DNA of 64,000 bases from Escherichia coli (lineage in GTDB: Bacteria; Pseudomonadota; Gammaproteobacteria; Enterobacterales; Enterobacteriaceae), in the NCBI RefSeq assembly GCF_046105845.1, contig NZ_CP151004.1; one strand, given 5' to 3'. Of this stretch, positions 24,401 to 51,467 are shown piece after piece. The position numbers were made by a program, and so were the translations under genes. Under the pieces are notes generated by a model. That model was not told the origin of the DNA. It did no database searches and saw nothing but the letters and a program-made list of their open reading frames with translations. Within the stretch, counting starts at the first letter, position 1. Each line of letters starts with the position of its first letter.

Positions 24401-25225
24401 ATGCAATCACTACATGGGAATTGTCTAATTGCGTACGCAAGACATAAATATATTCTCACCATGGTTAATGGTGAATATCGCTATTTTAATGGCGGTGATC
24501 TGGTTTTTGCGGATGCAAGCCAAATTCAAGTGGATAAGTGTGTTGAGAATTTCGTATTAGTTTCAAGAGACACGCTTTCATTATTTCTCCCGATGCTCAA
24601 GGAGGAGGCATTAAAACTTCATGCACATAAAAAAGTTCCTGCATTACTCGTTCATCACTGTACCAGAGATATTCCTGTTTTTCAGGAAGTTGCGCAACTA
24701 TCGCAGAATAAGAATCTTCGCTATGCAGAAATGCTACGTAAAAGGGCATTAATCTTTGCGTTGTTATCTGTTTTTCTTGAGGATACGCAGTTTATACCGT
24801 TACTTCTGAACGTGTTGCAACCGAACATGCGAACACGAGTTTGTACGGTCATCAATAATAATATCGCCCATGAGTGGACATTAGCCCGAATCGCTAGCGA
24901 ATTGTTGATGAGTCCAAGCCTGTTAAAGAAAAAATTGCGCGAAGAAGGTACGTCATATTCACAGTTGCTTACTGAGTGTAGAATGCAGCGTGCTTTACAA
25001 CTTATTGTTATATATGGTGTTTCAATTAAGCGAGTTGCAGTATCCTGTGGATATCACAGCGTGTCGTATTTCATTTACGTTTTTCGAAATTATTATGGGA
25101 TGACGCCCACAGAGTATCAGGAGCGATCGGCGCAGGAATTACCGAACTGTGGCTCGGCGGCAAGTATGGCTGCGCAAGGGAATTTTTACGGCACTGACCG
25201 TTCTGCGGAAGGAATAAGATTATAG
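24401..25225 (+). CDS. gadX: AraC-family acid-resistance regulator GadX
   Basis: 274-aa ORF with C-terminal AraC-type HTH; AT-rich. Confidence 0.93.
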   Translation: MQSLHGNCLIAYARHKYILTMVNGEYRYFNGGDLVFADASQIQVDKCVENFVLVSRDTLSLFLPMLKEEALKLHAHKKVPALLVHHCTRDIPVFQEVAQLSQNKNLRYAEMLRKRALIFALLSVFLEDTQFIPLLLNVLQPNMRTRVCTVINNNIAHEWTLARIASELLMSPSLLKKKLREEGTSYSQLLTECRMQRALQLIVIYGVSIKRVAVSCGYHSVSYFIYVFRNYYGMTPTEYQERSAQELPNCGSAASMAAQGNFYGTDRSAEGIRL

Positions 25226-25241
25226 AGTTTTACTCAGACAT

Positions 25242-25347
25242 AAAAAAAACCCGGCATAGGGGACCGGGAAGAGGATAGTCTGCCGTCTCCAGACTAATAA
25301 ACCGTTATAACACTCCCTGTTGGCACGGGAAACTTTGTGCTCTCAGT
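25242..25347 (-). ncRNA. gadY: GadY small RNA, cis-antisense to the gadX 3' end
   Basis: Minus-strand sequence actgagagcacaaagtttcccgtgccaacaggg...cccggtcccctatgccgggtttttttt matches GadY as recalled; terminal hairpin plus U-tract. Confidence 0.8.
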
Positions 25348-25593
25348 AAGTTAAATATAACTTTTACTGGAAATAAGATCAGCCATTTTTTTATAAACAT
25401 AAGCTATACGCTGTGCGAAAATATATTCGTGCTGCATTTACTTATTATCAATTAACTGTTATGCAAAACTACTTTGTGGATAAATTTTGGTCCTACCAAA
25501 TCTGGCAGTTTTTGCGCTAAGAAACAGTCTGGCATCATTTCATTAGTATACTGAAATTGAAATAATCGCAGTAATGAAATATAAGGGATAGTC

Positions 25594-26322
25594 ATGACTC
25601 ATGTCTGCTCGGTGATCCTCGTTCGTCGTTCATTCGATATTTATCATGAACAGCAAAAAATATCGTTGCACAACGAGAGTATCCTGTTACTGGATAAAAA
25701 TTTGGCAGACGATTTTACGTTTTGTTCACCGGATACGCGACGACTGGATATCGATGAGCTGACAGTTTGCCATTACTTACAAAATATTCGTCAGATACCA
25801 CGCAATTTAGGGTTACATAGCAAAGACCGTCTGTTAATTAACCAGTCACCCCCCATGCCGCTGGTGACGGCGATTTTTGATAGTTTCAATGACTCTGGGG
25901 TAAATTCGCCGATACTGAGCAAAATGCTCTATCTTTCCTGTTTATCGATGTTTTCTCATAAGAAAGAACTGATCCCCTTACTTTTCAATAGTATCAGTAC
26001 TGTTTCAGGAAAAGTTGAACGCCTTATTAGCTTTGATATCGCTAAACGTTGGTATCTGCGCGATATCGCGGAAAGAATGTATACCAGCGAGAGTCTCATC
26101 AAAAAAAAGTTGCAGGATGAAAATACCTGTTTCAGTAAAATATTACTCGCCTCCAGGATGTCGATGGCCAGACGATTACTCGAGTTACGTCAAATTCCTC
26201 TGCATACTATTGCGGAAAAATGTGGCTATAGCAGTACGTCGTACTTTATAAACACATTTCGACAATATTATGGTGTAACGCCACATCAGTTTGCGCAACA
26301 TTCGCCAGGTACCTTTTCCTGA
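25594..26322 (+). CDS. gadW: AraC-family acid-resistance regulator GadW
   Basis: 242-aa ORF with C-terminal AraC-type HTH, paralogous to GadX. Confidence 0.93.
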   Translation: MTHVCSVILVRRSFDIYHEQQKISLHNESILLLDKNLADDFTFCSPDTRRLDIDELTVCHYLQNIRQIPRNLGLHSKDRLLINQSPPMPLVTAIFDSFNDSGVNSPILSKMLYLSCLSMFSHKKELIPLLFNSISTVSGKVERLISFDIAKRWYLRDIAERMYTSESLIKKKLQDENTCFSKILLASRMSMARRLLELRQIPLHTIAEKCGYSSTSYFINTFRQYYGVTPHQFAQHSPGTFS

Positions 26323-30980: not shown

Positions 30981-31318
30981 TTTAGTCCCTGAAAATTCTT
31001 GAGAAATAACGGTTCTTTAAATTGCGCGCGAGGAGAGATATGAGGGATTTACAGACCAGCGGCGTAGTGGGGTTGTCAGCCAGTAAGGTGGGATACAGGC
31101 ATAGTGATCGACATGGTGAGGTCAACGACAAAAAAAATGTTGCCGTTCTGCCAACAGTTCCTGCCAGCATTCGGGCAACGAAGGGTTCTACTGGTGGATA
31201 CATATACCAGGGGAATAAAGTCGTTTTAACCTCTCCTTTAGTAATCACCGGGGGTAATGAAATCAGCATCTGCATCCCTCGTCATGCCAGCCATCAATTT
31301 CAGTTGCTTATGTCCTGA

Positions 31319-40613: not shown

Positions 40614-40881
40614 ACATTTGCGCTTAACAAAACACGACCATATGGATAACAAAACCATAGCATTTGCAAGGGATAACGCACAGCGCTCTTCACTCCTGAT
40701 GGGGCATATCGTTTTGCCTGACAAAGAGGGCGTGCTTTTGCGTATTTGCCGAGATACCAGGCAATTTCATGGGATATAAACGCCTGTAAACTCACCCGGC
40801 GAATATTATCGCCCTGAATTTTAAATAAATTTATTTTTCGCCAGCCACCCCGGTATTAACCCAGGCAGCCAGCATTTTTTA

Positions 40882-40896
40882 TTTTCCTCATGGAGA
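40882..40896 (+). promoter_or_regulatory. U-rich/SD hairpin in the chuA leader (candidate FourU-type RNA thermometer)
   Basis: ttttcc tcat ggaga: the U-rich tract can pair with the GGAG Shine-Dalgarno just 5' of the ATG. Confidence 0.4.
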
Positions 40897-40902
40897 ATCG
40901 CT

Positions 40903-42885
40903 ATGTCACGTCCGCAATTTACCTCGTTGCGTTTGAGTTTGTTGGCTTTGGCTGTTTCTGCCACCTTGCCAACGTTTGCTTTTGCTACTGAAACCATGAC
41001 CGTTACGGCAACGGGGAATGCCCGTAGTTCCTTCGAAGCGCCTATGATGGTCAGCGTCATCGACACTTCCGCTCCTGAAAATCAAACGGCTACTTCAGCC
41101 ACCGATCTGCTGCGTCATGTTCCTGGAATTACTCTTGATGGTACCGGACGAACCAACGGTCAGGATGTAAATATGCGTGGCTATGATCATCGCGGCGTGC
41201 TGGTTCTTGTCGATGGTGTTCGCCAGGGAACGGATACCGGACACCTGAATGGTACTTTTCTTGATCCGGCGCTGATCAAGCGTGTTGAGATTGTTCGCGG
41301 ACCTTCAGCATTACTGTATGGCAGTGGCGCGCTGGGTGGGGTGATCTCCTACGATACGGTCGATGCAAAAGATTTATTGCAGGAAGGACAAAGTAGTGGT
41401 TTTCGTGTCTTTGGTACTGGCGGCACGGGGGACCATAGCCTGGGATTAGGCGCGAGCGCGTTTGGACGAACTGAAAATCTGGATGGTATTGTGGCCTGGT
41501 CCAGTCGCGATCGGGGTGATTTACGCCAGAGCAATGATGAAACCGCGCCGAATGACGAGTCCATTAATAACATGCTGGCGAAAGGGACCTGGCAAATTGA
41601 TTCAGCCCAGTCTCTGAGCGGTTTAGTGCGTTACTACAACAACGACGCGCGTGAACCAAAAAATCCGCAGACCGTTGAAGCTTCTGATAGCAGCAACCCG
41701 ATGGTTGATCGTTCAACAATTCAACGCGATGTGCAGCTTTCTTATAAACTCGCCCCGCAGGGCAACGACTGGTTAAATGCAGATGCAAAAATTTACTGGT
41801 CGGAAGTCCGTATTAATGCGCAAAACACGGGGAGTTCCGGCGAGTATCGTGAACAGATAACAAAAGGAGCCAGGCTGGAGAACCGTTCCACTCTATTTGC
41901 CGACAGTTTCGCTTCTCACTTACTGACATATGGCGGTGAGTATTATCGTCAGGAACAACATCCGGGCGGCGCGACGACGGGCTTCCCGCAAGCAAAAATC
42001 GATTTTAGCTCTGGCTGGCTACAGGATGAGATCACCTTACGCGATCTGCCGATTACCCTGCTTGGCGGAACCCGCTATGACAGTTATCGCGGTAGCAGCG
42101 ACGGCTACAAAGATGTTGATGCTGACAAATGGTCATCTCGTGCGGGGATGACTATCAACCCGACCAACTGGCTGATGTTATTTGGCTCATATGCCCAGGC
42201 ATTCCGCGCCCCGACGATGGGCGAAATGTATAACGATTCTAAGCACTTCTCGATTGGTCGCTTCTATACCAACTATTGGGTGCCAAACCCGAACTTACGT
42301 CCGGAAACTAACGAAACTCAGGAGTACGGTTTTGGGCTGCGTTTTGATGACCTGATGTTGTCCAATGATGCCCTGGAATTTAAAGCCAGCTACTTTGATA
42401 CCAAAGCGAAGGATTACATCTCCACGACCGTCGATTTCGCGGCGGCGACAACTATGTCGTATAACGTCCCGAACGCCAAAATCTGGGGTTGGGATGTGAT
42501 GACGAAATATACCACTGATCTGTTTAGCCTTGATGTGGCCTATAACCGTACCCGCGGCAAAGACACCGATACCGGCGAATATATCTCCAGTATTAACCCG
42601 GATACCGTTACCAGCACCCTGAATATTCCGATCGCTCACAGTGGCTTCTCTGTTGGGTGGGTTGGTACGTTTGCCGATCGCTCAACACATATCAGCAGCA
42701 GTTACAGCAAACAACCAGGCTATGGCGTGAATGATTTCTACGTCAGTTATCAAGGACAACAGGCGCTCAAAGGTATGACCACTACTTTGGTGTTGGGTAA
42801 CGCTTTCGACAAAGAGTACTGGTCGCCACAAGGCATCCCACAGGATGGTCGTAATGGAAAAATTTTCGTGAGTTATCAATGGTAA
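40903..42885 (+). CDS. chuA: TonB-dependent outer-membrane haem/haemoglobin receptor ChuA
   Basis: 660-aa ORF with signal peptide, TonB-box-like region (ETMTVTAT) and aromatic C-terminus ending ...VSYQW. Confidence 0.95.
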   Translation: MSRPQFTSLRLSLLALAVSATLPTFAFATETMTVTATGNARSSFEAPMMVSVIDTSAPENQTATSATDLLRHVPGITLDGTGRTNGQDVNMRGYDHRGVLVLVDGVRQGTDTGHLNGTFLDPALIKRVEIVRGPSALLYGSGALGGVISYDTVDAKDLLQEGQSSGFRVFGTGGTGDHSLGLGASAFGRTENLDGIVAWSSRDRGDLRQSNDETAPNDESINNMLAKGTWQIDSAQSLSGLVRYYNNDAREPKNPQTVEASDSSNPMVDRSTIQRDVQLSYKLAPQGNDWLNADAKIYWSEVRINAQNTGSSGEYREQITKGARLENRSTLFADSFASHLLTYGGEYYRQEQHPGGATTGFPQAKIDFSSGWLQDEITLRDLPITLLGGTRYDSYRGSSDGYKDVDADKWSSRAGMTINPTNWLMLFGSYAQAFRAPTMGEMYNDSKHFSIGRFYTNYWVPNPNLRPETNETQEYGFGLRFDDLMLSNDALEFKASYFDTKAKDYISTTVDFAAATTMSYNVPNAKIWGWDVMTKYTTDLFSLDVAYNRTRGKDTDTGEYISSINPDTVTSTLNIPIAHSGFSVGWVGTFADRSTHISSSYSKQPGYGVNDFYVSYQGQQALKGMTTTLVLGNAFDKEYWSPQGIPQDGRNGKIFVSYQW

Positions 42886-50997: not shown

Positions 50998-51148
50998 ATT
51001 GCGCTCCTGATTGTTGCCGGTAGTGTCTCTCTTCGAAGCGGATAAGTCAAAAACATATATGACTTAACGAATATGTAAGTGTGGAGAAAGGTATAGATGT
51101 GAATTAAGCGTTGGGTATTCATTTGAAAGGAGGTCTGAATCAGGACGT

Positions 51149-51233
51149 AAAAAAACCGACTTTGCGTCGGTTTTTTACTTTCCAGCCCTGAGTTGGTGGC
51201 TCTGGCTGGAGTGAGAGAGCTCTTATCTAACAG
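51149..51233 (-). ncRNA. agrB: agr-type antisense sRNA repeat (probably agrB), antitoxin of dinQ
   Basis: About 85 nt between arsR and dinQ; minus-strand transcript would end at hairpin ccgacgcaaagtcgg plus U-tract; body is complementary to a dinQ leader segment (ctggccggagtgagagagttcttatctaaca at about 51632-51662); A/B assignment from recalled K-12 order. Confidence 0.5.
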
Positions 51234-51383
51234 TTCAATACTATTAGCCAGTGGCTAACATTGCAAGAATTAGCGATTTCTTCAGCTGGAGAAGGGACAG
51301 TTTGCTATACATGTTGGTGAAAGAGGATTTATATACTTTCATCGGGTCGCTGCCGTACCAAGCCTTGTCCGAATCCGGACGTA

Positions 51384-51467
51384 AAAAAACCGACTTCGCG
51401 TCGGTTTTTTACTTTCCAGCCCTGAGTTGGTGGCTCTGGTTGGAGTGAGAATGCCATCATCTAACGC
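51384..51467 (-). ncRNA. agrA: agr-type antisense sRNA repeat (probably agrA)
   Basis: Second copy of the same repeat and hairpin, 235 bp from the first. Confidence 0.5.

What the first reader, a model, noticed from the sequence alone, without database searches (positions are those of the whole stretch)
25226..25347. gadY antisense sRNA overlapping the gadX 3' end
The minus strand directly downstream of the gadX stop reads as GadY, ending in a GC hairpin plus eight U (cccggtcccctatgccggg tttttttt). Its complementarity to the gadX 3' UTR is the basis of the known stabilisation of gadX mRNA. It is invisible to ORF-based annotation.
Basis: partly seen in the sequence, partly recalled or inferred. 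Interest (0 to 1): 0.3.

Follow-up and report, generated by a model that had tools for sequence, protein, structure and literature searches.

The report
GadY small RNA, already well known

Summary
Window 25242-25347 (minus strand) is gadY. It matches Rfam RF00122 end to end (150 bits against a cut-off of 45, E 8e-32). It is 106/106 identical to the annotated K-12 MG1655 ncRNA gadY (b4452). It lies between gadX (24401-25225, +) and gadW (25594-26322, +) on the opposite strand. It ends in the hairpin CCCGGTCCCCTATGCCGGG followed by eight U.

Two refinements apply:
- GadY stops 16 nt short of the gadX stop codon. It overlaps the gadX 3' UTR, which is the gadX-gadW intergenic RNA, and not the coding sequence.
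- The current model is GadY-directed cleavage of the bicistronic gadX-gadW mRNA by RNase III plus an unidentified nuclease, giving more stable gadX and gadW transcripts. Roles in trans, through Hfq and CsrA, have also been reported.

A cis-encoded antisense RNA stays complementary to its target whatever mutates.

One modest extra: gadY is 98-100% identical in other Escherichia species where gadX and gadW are only 78-86% identical. Pairing alone does not explain that.

Novelty: already known. Interest is low.

The parts
25242..25347 (-). gadY small RNA gene. This is the 105/106-nt primary form: 5' end at A 25347, 3' end in the U-tract.
   Evidence: 106/106 identical to K-12 ncRNA gadY b4452. 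Rfam RF00122 matches 25237-25350 at 150 bits, E 8e-32.
25301..25347 (-). Predicted 5' stem-loop 1 of GadY (RNA nt 1-47). It contains one GGA at 25316-25314.
   Evidence: The MFE fold agrees with the Rfam consensus structure. This is a prediction only: the whole-RNA fold z-score is -0.73, which is not significant. The two substitutions seen in E. whittamii and Escherichia sp. E1V33 break predicted pairs rather than compensating.
25276..25296 (-). Predicted stem-loop 2 (UAGUCUG-GAGACGG-CAGACUA), with a GGA at the loop edge (25290-25288). This is a candidate CsrA contact.
   Evidence: PMC10081199 Table 1 lists GadY with 2 GGA, 1 of them in a stem-loop loop.
25242..25268 (-). Intrinsic terminator: hairpin CCCGGTCCCCTATGCCGGG (25268-25250) plus eight U (25249-25242). 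It is also the expected Hfq-binding 3' module.
   Evidence: Terminator scan and exact-string check. Hfq binding is taken from the literature and was not tested here.
25354..25359 (-). Promoter -10 hexamer TATATT of gadY, at -12 to -7 relative to +1 (25347).
   Evidence: Position. The hexamer is invariant in all 7 Escherichia sequences aligned. The sequence upstream of gadY is identical to K-12. RpoS dependence comes from the literature. The generic sigma-70 scan did not call it, because the -35 is weak.
25379..25386 (-). ATGGCTGA, a match to the AppY motif ATGSCWGM reported to overlap the -35 of the gadY promoter.
   Evidence: The motif and its location are described in PMC10057817. It varies among Escherichia species (ATAGCTGA, TTGGCTGA).
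24401..25225 (+). gadX coding sequence (274 aa, AraC-family acid-resistance activator). Stop codon TAG at 25223-25225.
   Evidence: ORF list. 94.7% nucleotide identity to K-12 gadX. Annotated as gadX in syntenic genomes.
25226..25593 (+). gadX-gadW intergenic region, transcribed on the + strand as the gadX 3' UTR and the linker of the gadX-gadW mRNA. The stretch 25242-25347 is the perfectly complementary target of GadY.
   Evidence: No terminator-like site on the + strand between gadX and gadW. 366 of 368 aligned positions match K-12. The bicistronic mRNA and its GadY-dependent cleavage come from the literature.
25594..26322 (+). gadW coding sequence (242 aa, AraC-family regulator), the downstream cistron of the gadX-gadW mRNA.
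   Evidence: ORF list. 97.0% identity to K-12 gadW. Annotation.

Best explanation
This is gadY, the cis-encoded antisense small RNA of the E. coli acid fitness island.

It is transcribed from its own promoter (-10 TATATT at 25359-25354, +1 at 25347) on the strand opposite gadX and gadW. The literature describes this promoter as RpoS-dependent and activated by GadX/GadW. Transcription ends at an intrinsic terminator (25268-25242).

The RNA is perfectly complementary to the gadX-gadW intergenic part of the gadX-gadW mRNA. It pairs there, and the duplex is cut by RNase III and by at least one other, unidentified endonuclease. The separated gadX and gadW transcripts are more stable and accumulate. 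That raises GadX and GadW levels and, through them, the glutamate-dependent acid-resistance genes (gadA, gadBC, gadE).

GadY also binds Hfq and CsrA and is reported to act in trans.

What is shown here: the identity of the sequence, its position and strand, the terminator, the unchanged promoter sequence, the lack of a + strand terminator between gadX and gadW, and its conservation. What is inferred from the K-12 literature: transcription, pairing in vivo, cleavage, stabilisation and protein partners.
For: - Rfam RF00122 full-length hit at 150 bits, E 8e-32.
- 106/106 identity to K-12 gadY, and 366/368 over the whole gadX-gadW intergenic region, promoter included.
- Gene order ccp-gadA-gadX-[gadY]-gadW-mdtF-mdtE-gadE, as in K-12 and other E. 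coli.
- Terminator hairpin plus eight U.
- No terminator-like site on the + strand between gadX and gadW, consistent with read-through into gadW.
- Present once in 5412 of 5426 complete E. coli genomes, at >=99% identity in 5410.
- 98-100% identical in E. whittamii and three other Escherichia lineages whose gadX and gadW are 78-86% identical. The drop in identity falls within a few bases of both transcript ends.
- Literature, all at second hand:
  - three species of 105, 90 and 59 nt with a common 3' end, and stabilisation of gadX mRNA (PMC3050690);
  - GadY-dependent processing of gadXW with RNase III and another nuclease (PMC3919570; PMC5029454; PMC11230228);
  - RNase III-cut dsRNA captured at gadY in vivo (PMC7373196);
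  - blocking GadY with dCas13a lowered gadX mRNA by 73-81% and caused acid sensitivity (PMC10783499).
Against: Nothing in the sequence argues against it. The limits are these:
- No expression data exist for this strain.
- The three-stem fold is no more stable than shuffled sequence (z = -0.73).
- The only two substitutions seen among relatives break predicted pairs rather than compensating. The secondary structure upstream of the terminator therefore has no comparative support here.
- The primary papers (Opdyke 2004, 2011; Tramonti 2008; Parker 2017) were not available, so the mechanism is cited at second hand.
- Secondary sources disagree on the nuclease. PMC10783499 names RNase E in its text and RNase III in a figure legend.
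Confidence: 0.95

Rival explanations
1. GadY simply shields the 3' end of a monocistronic gadX mRNA from nucleases by forming a duplex. This is the 2004 model and the first reader's wording. No cleavage is involved.
For: This is how several papers still describe it. [quoted passage not shown] See also PMC7373196 and PMC3050690.
Against: There is no + strand terminator between gadX and gadW, so a discrete gadX 3' end is more likely made by processing. Later work reports GadY-dependent cleavage of a gadX-gadW transcript within the paired region. RNase III-cut dsRNA has been recovered from the gadY locus.
Confidence: 0.15
2. The function that selection mainly preserves is in trans. GadY acts as an Hfq-dependent base-pairing RNA and/or CsrA-binding RNA on unlinked mRNAs, and the cis effect on gadX-gadW is secondary.
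For: - gadY is 98-100% identical across Escherichia lineages where the flanking genes and the rest of the intergenic region are 76-86% identical. Fisher p is 2e-8 to 2e-10 after removing the 20-mer used for retrieval.
- Cis complementarity is automatic and needs no sequence conservation.
- Hfq co-purification with many mRNAs suggests trans action (PMC11230228).
- CsrA binds GadY in CLIP-seq and EMSA.
- Two GGA motifs are present.
- GadY is reported to titrate CsrA and to target sdiA.
Against: - The same DNA also encodes the gadX-gadW processing site and lies next to the divergent gadY/gadW promoters and GadX/GadW binding sites. Constraint on both strands could explain the conservation.
- CsrA sponge activity was not reproduced in one study.
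- The loci were retrieved through an exact 20-mer within gadY, so lineages with a diverged gadY would have been missed.
Confidence: 0.35
3. The hairpin plus T-run is merely the terminator of gadX, or a bidirectional terminator, and no separate small RNA is made.
For: The hairpin lies only 25 nt downstream of the gadX stop codon, and its stem is symmetric enough to form on either strand.
Against: - On the + strand the hairpin is preceded by the A-run and followed by AAGAGGAT, so it has no T-tract. The scan calls it on the minus strand only.
- The full 114-position GadY model matches, not just the hairpin.
- An invariant -10 hexamer sits at the right distance from the K-12 +1.
- The conserved block covers the whole 106 nt and the promoter.
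Confidence: 0.02

Closest known systems
GadY (IS183) of Escherichia coli K-12, ncRNA b4452, Rfam RF00122
   Same: Identical sequence (106/106), the same promoter sequence, the same terminator, and the same position and strand between gadX and gadW.
   Different: Nothing within the RNA. The host strain is not K-12. Its gadX is 94.7% and its gadW 97.0% identical to K-12, and the acid fitness island carries the chu/shu heme-uptake locus.
OOP RNA of phage lambda, antisense to the cII-O mRNA
   Same: A short cis-encoded antisense RNA overlapping the 3' region of an mRNA. The duplex is cut by RNase III, and some cleavage persists without RNase III (PMC3919570).
   Different: OOP lowers expression of its target, whereas GadY-directed cleavage raises the levels of both products. 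The sequences are unrelated. This comparison rests on the literature and was not tested here.
Type I antitoxin and other cis-antisense RNA pairs (Sok/hok, IstR/tisB, OrzO/zorO, RyeA/SdsR)
   Same: Antisense pairing followed by RNase III cleavage of the duplex.
   Different: Those pairs repress a toxin or degrade each other. GadY is a positive regulator of transcription-factor mRNAs, binds Hfq, and has no toxin partner.

Membership tests
GadY (Rfam RF00122) | Scores above the curated gathering threshold of the family covariance model over its full length | tested here: met
   150 bits against a gathering score of 45, E 8.3e-32, model positions 1-114 of 114, window 25237-25350 (-).
GadY (Rfam RF00122) | Sequence identity to the experimentally defined K-12 gadY gene (b4452) | tested here: met
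   106/106 identical to NC_000913.3 3664864-3664969.
GadY (Rfam RF00122) | Encoded between gadX and gadW on the opposite strand, complementary to the gadX 3' UTR | tested here: met
   gadX is at 24401-25225 (+), gadY at 25242-25347 (-) and gadW at 25594-26322 (+). The layout is the same in K-12 and other E. coli.
GadY (Rfam RF00122) | Rho-independent terminator with a U-tract at the common 3' end | tested here: met
   A 6-bp stem with 5 G-C pairs and a 7-nt loop, followed by eight T.
GadY (Rfam RF00122) | Own promoter upstream of +1 (RpoS-dependent, activated by GadX/GadW) | tested here: inconclusive
   The promoter sequence is identical to K-12, and the -10 TATATT is invariant across 7 Escherichia sequences. 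The generic sigma-70 scan does not call it. Sigma-factor dependence and activity cannot be read from sequence.
GadY (Rfam RF00122) | Three-stem secondary structure supported by covariation | tested here: inconclusive
   The MFE fold equals the Rfam consensus structure, but z = -0.73 against shuffles. Only two substitutions occur among 7 sequences, and both break predicted pairs.
GadY (Rfam RF00122) | Expressed as ~105, 90 and 59-nt RNAs in stationary phase | not testable with these tools
   Reported for K-12 (PMC3050690 citing Opdyke 2004). No expression data exist for this strain.
GadY (Rfam RF00122) | GadY-dependent cleavage and stabilisation of gadX-gadW mRNA; Hfq binding | not testable with these tools
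   Literature only.

The most novel reading that the evidence does not exclude
The conservation island may mean that cis pairing is not what selection holds constant. gadY is near-invariant (98-100%) across Escherichia species whose gadX, gadW and remaining intergenic DNA have diverged by 14-24%, and the conserved block ends within a few bases of both transcript ends. On this reading, GadY is above all a trans-acting or protein-binding RNA (Hfq and CsrA networks), or it presents a sequence-specific site for the still unidentified second endonuclease.
Probability: 0.35. Interest if true: 0.3.

Novelty: already known. Interest (0 to 1): 0.08.

Why it matters
It matters little as a discovery. GadY has been characterised since 2004 and this copy is identical to the reference.

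It has two practical uses:
- It confirms that this non-K-12 strain carries an intact GadY/GadX/GadW post-transcriptional circuit for acid resistance.
- It illustrates an annotation gap. RefSeq/PGAP leaves gadY unannotated in the non-K-12 genomes examined, although it is present in 5412 of 5426 complete E. coli genomes.

The conservation pattern also gives a simple comparative argument that GadY is constrained by more than cis pairing. That fits recent experimental hints of trans-acting roles.

Tried and rejected
- I tried to read the primary papers: Opdyke 2004 (PMC522195), Opdyke 2011 (PMC3030618) and Parker 2017 (PMC5510166). None is held, so the mechanism is cited through secondary sources.
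- I looked for comparative support for the three-stem structure. The sequences are too similar. Only 2 substitutions and 1 single-base insertion occur among 7 sequences, and neither substitution is compensatory. I therefore built no covariance model and ran no pair count.
- Thermodynamic support is also absent (z = -0.73).
- The genome-contig scan with an exact 20-mer from GadY returned 5 Escherichia loci and one chance match in Exiguobacterium profundum, which has no GadY hit. E. albertii, E. fergusonii and E. marmotae did not appear. An exact-match scan cannot tell absence from divergence.
- I considered a small ORF inside GadY (GUG-initiated, 10 codons). I rejected it by inspection of the sequence: it has no ribosome-binding site, and the G-to-U change in E. 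whittamii would be non-synonymous in that frame.
- I considered the hairpin as a gadX terminator and rejected it.

Full report
**1. Checking the observation**

The string CCCGGTCCCCTATGCCGGG lies at 25268-25250 and is followed by exactly eight T at 25249-25242. A generic terminator scan calls this site on the minus strand only: a 6-bp stem with 5 G-C pairs and a 7-nt loop. It found 3 terminator-like sites in 24700-25900, against 0.7 +/- 0.8 in shuffles.

A scan of the whole window against Rfam 15 gives a full-length hit to RF00122 (GadY) at 25237-25350 (-). It covers model positions 1-114 of 114, at 150 bits against a gathering score of 45, with E 8.3e-32.

**2. What it is**

The K-12 MG1655 record annotates ncRNA gadY (b4452) at 3664864-3664969, between gadW and gadX on the opposite strand. 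Window 25242-25347 (-) is 106/106 identical to it. The whole gadX-gadW intergenic region matches K-12 at 366 of 368 aligned positions, and both differences lie next to the gadW start codon.

The flanking ORFs are:
- gadX, 24401-25225 (+), 274 aa, ending ...EGIRL with stop TAG at 25223-25225;
- gadW, 25594-26322 (+), 242 aa.

The wider gene order is treF-ccp-gadA-gadX-gadW-mdtF-mdtE-gadE-hdeD-hdeAB-yhiD, the acid fitness island. Here the chu/shu heme-uptake locus is inserted between yhiD and dctR.

The strain is not K-12. Its gadX is 94.7% and its gadW 97.0% identical to K-12. The best match of window 20000-44000 to any of 5426 complete RefSeq E. coli genomes is 99.1%.

**3. Anatomy (minus-strand features, window coordinates)**

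- +1 is A at 25347, the K-12 5' end.
- The -10 hexamer TATATT lies at 25359-25354, which is -12 to -7.
- The -35 is weak: CTGATC by my reading, 3 of 6 matches to consensus. This explains why the generic sigma-70 scan did not call the promoter.
- ATGGCTGA at 25386-25379 matches the AppY motif ATGSCWGM. PMC10057817 places that motif over the gadY -35.
- The predicted fold has three stem-loops and equals the Rfam consensus: 25347-25301, 25296-25276, and the terminator at 25268-25250.
- The fold is no more stable than shuffled sequence (z = -0.73). Apart from the terminator, the structure is therefore a prediction without statistical support here.
- Two GGA triplets are present, at 25316-25314 and 25290-25288. 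This agrees with the count in PMC10081199.
- GadY ends 16 nt before the gadX stop codon. It overlaps no coding sequence, only the gadX 3' UTR.
- On the + strand no terminator-like site lies between gadX and gadW. This fits the published bicistronic gadX-gadW mRNA.

**4. Distribution and conservation**

The 122-nt finding occurs in 5412 of 5426 complete E. coli genomes. The median is one copy per genome (at most two), always on the chromosome, and 5410 genomes have >=99% identity.

RefSeq/PGAP shows no feature under the match in the 20 sampled genomes, nor in the two regions I inspected. Only MG1655 has the ncRNA feature.

A scan of one genome per GTDB species with a 20-mer from GadY returned six loci:
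- E. coli, two loci;
- E. whittamii;
- Escherichia sp. E1V33;
- Escherichia sp. MOD1-EC7003;
- one chance match in Exiguobacterium, with no GadY hit.

In the three most divergent of these lineages the contrast with the flanks is strong:

| Region | E. whittamii | E1V33 | 'E. coli' E69 |
|---|---|---|---|
| gadY | 98.1% | 98.1% | 100% (plus one inserted A) |
| gadX CDS | 81.5% | 80.0% | 81.2% |
| gadW CDS | 78.3% | 79.9% | 86.3% |
| Rest of the intergenic region | 75.6% | 78.0% | 83.3% |

A 40-nt profile shows identity of 0.93-1.00 from 25241 to 25360. It falls to 0.30-0.65 in the last ~100 nt of gadX and to 0.50-0.72 beyond 25400. The alignment shows that variation resumes within about 3 nt of both transcript ends.

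With the retrieval 20-mer removed, gadY is still more conserved than its flanks (Fisher p = 2e-8 to 2e-10).

One caveat applies. Retrieval by an exact GadY 20-mer would miss lineages with a diverged gadY.

**5. How it most likely works**

What is shown here: the sequence, promoter and terminator are those of K-12 gadY, and the RNA is by construction perfectly complementary to the + strand transcript of 25242-25347.

What comes from the literature, all at second hand because the primary papers are not held:
- GadY accumulates in stationary phase in an RpoS-dependent way.
- It appears as species of 105, 90 and 59 nt with a common 3' end.
- It binds Hfq.
- It pairs with the gadX 3' UTR and raises gadX mRNA.
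[quoted passage not shown] RNase III takes part, and another unidentified endonuclease is involved.
- RNase III-cut dsRNA has been captured at the locus in vivo.
- Blocking GadY with dCas13a lowered gadX mRNA by 73-81% and made cells acid-sensitive.

Additional inputs have been reported: AppY, ArcA, and GadX/GadW. Additional outputs have been reported: CsrA binding or titration (with one negative sponge assay) and sdiA.

**6. A point of logic**

This cannot refute a cis-antisense mechanism, because any mutation changes both partners and complementarity is kept.

The same logic makes the conservation island informative, because pairing alone imposes no sequence constraint. Three things could be constrained instead:
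- structure or protein-binding sites in GadY (Hfq, CsrA, nuclease recognition);
- trans targets;
- the opposite-strand mRNA and nearby DNA sites.

I rate the trans or protein-binding reading at about 0.35 as the dominant constraint. It is already suggested in the literature, so it is not new.

**7. Rivals**

- A purely protective 3' duplex, the 2004 wording, is an older version of the same idea. It is less consistent with the missing + strand terminator and with the reported cleavage.
- A mere gadX terminator is excluded. The T-tract is on the minus strand only, the full-length model matches, and the promoter is conserved.

**8. Verdict**

The feature is already known and of low interest.

Noticed in passing
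window 25121-25400; loci L005, L006, L007: There is a sharp conservation island. GadY plus its core promoter are 93-100% identical across Escherichia species. The adjoining last ~100 nt of gadX, which encode the GadX C-terminal tail, are only 30-47% identical in the same genomes. Even against K-12, gadX has 44 mismatches in 825 nt while the 368-nt intergenic region has 2 differences.
   Followed up: partly
window 31130-31201 (-): Rfam RF02754 (ES205 sRNA) hits at 105 bits. By offset from the aligned genome NZ_CP102244.1, the hit lies about 100 nt downstream of gadE on the same strand, in the gadE 3' UTR region. From memory, this probably corresponds to the sRNA called GadF. In that genome PGAP calls a 'hypothetical protein' on the opposite strand across this spot.
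   Followed up: no
window 51147-51230 (-) and 51381-51464 (-): Two tandem hits to Rfam RF02891 (AgrB), at 108 and 100 bits, lie in the arsR-gor interval next to dinQ in the syntenic genome. From memory, these are presumably the agrA/agrB antisense RNAs of the dinQ type I toxin locus.
   Followed up: no
window 40874-40905 (+): Rfam RF02597, the shuA/chuA 5' UTR thermoregulator (60 bits against a gathering score of 58), hits at the start of chuA. The chu/shu heme-uptake locus sits inside the acid fitness island between yhiD and dctR, so the strain is not K-12-like.
   Followed up: no
window 20000-44000: The best match to any of 5426 complete RefSeq E. coli genomes is only 99.1% over 24 kb (an O7:H15 ST70 strain). 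The source lineage therefore has no near-identical complete E. coli genome in that collection. It could be a Shigella or an under-sampled E. coli lineage.
   Followed up: no
gadY locus in RefSeq genomes (H1-H20, L002, L009): RefSeq/PGAP annotates nothing at gadY in any non-K-12 genome sampled, although the sequence is present in 5412 of 5426 genomes. Only MG1655 carries the ncRNA feature.
   Followed up: yes
L003 (Exiguobacterium profundum NZ_MRSV01000001.1) 903-922: There is an exact 20-mer match to GadY in a Firmicute genome with no GadY hit by Rfam. This is about the number of chance matches expected for a 20-mer in 298 Gb (my estimate is roughly 0.5).
   Followed up: yes
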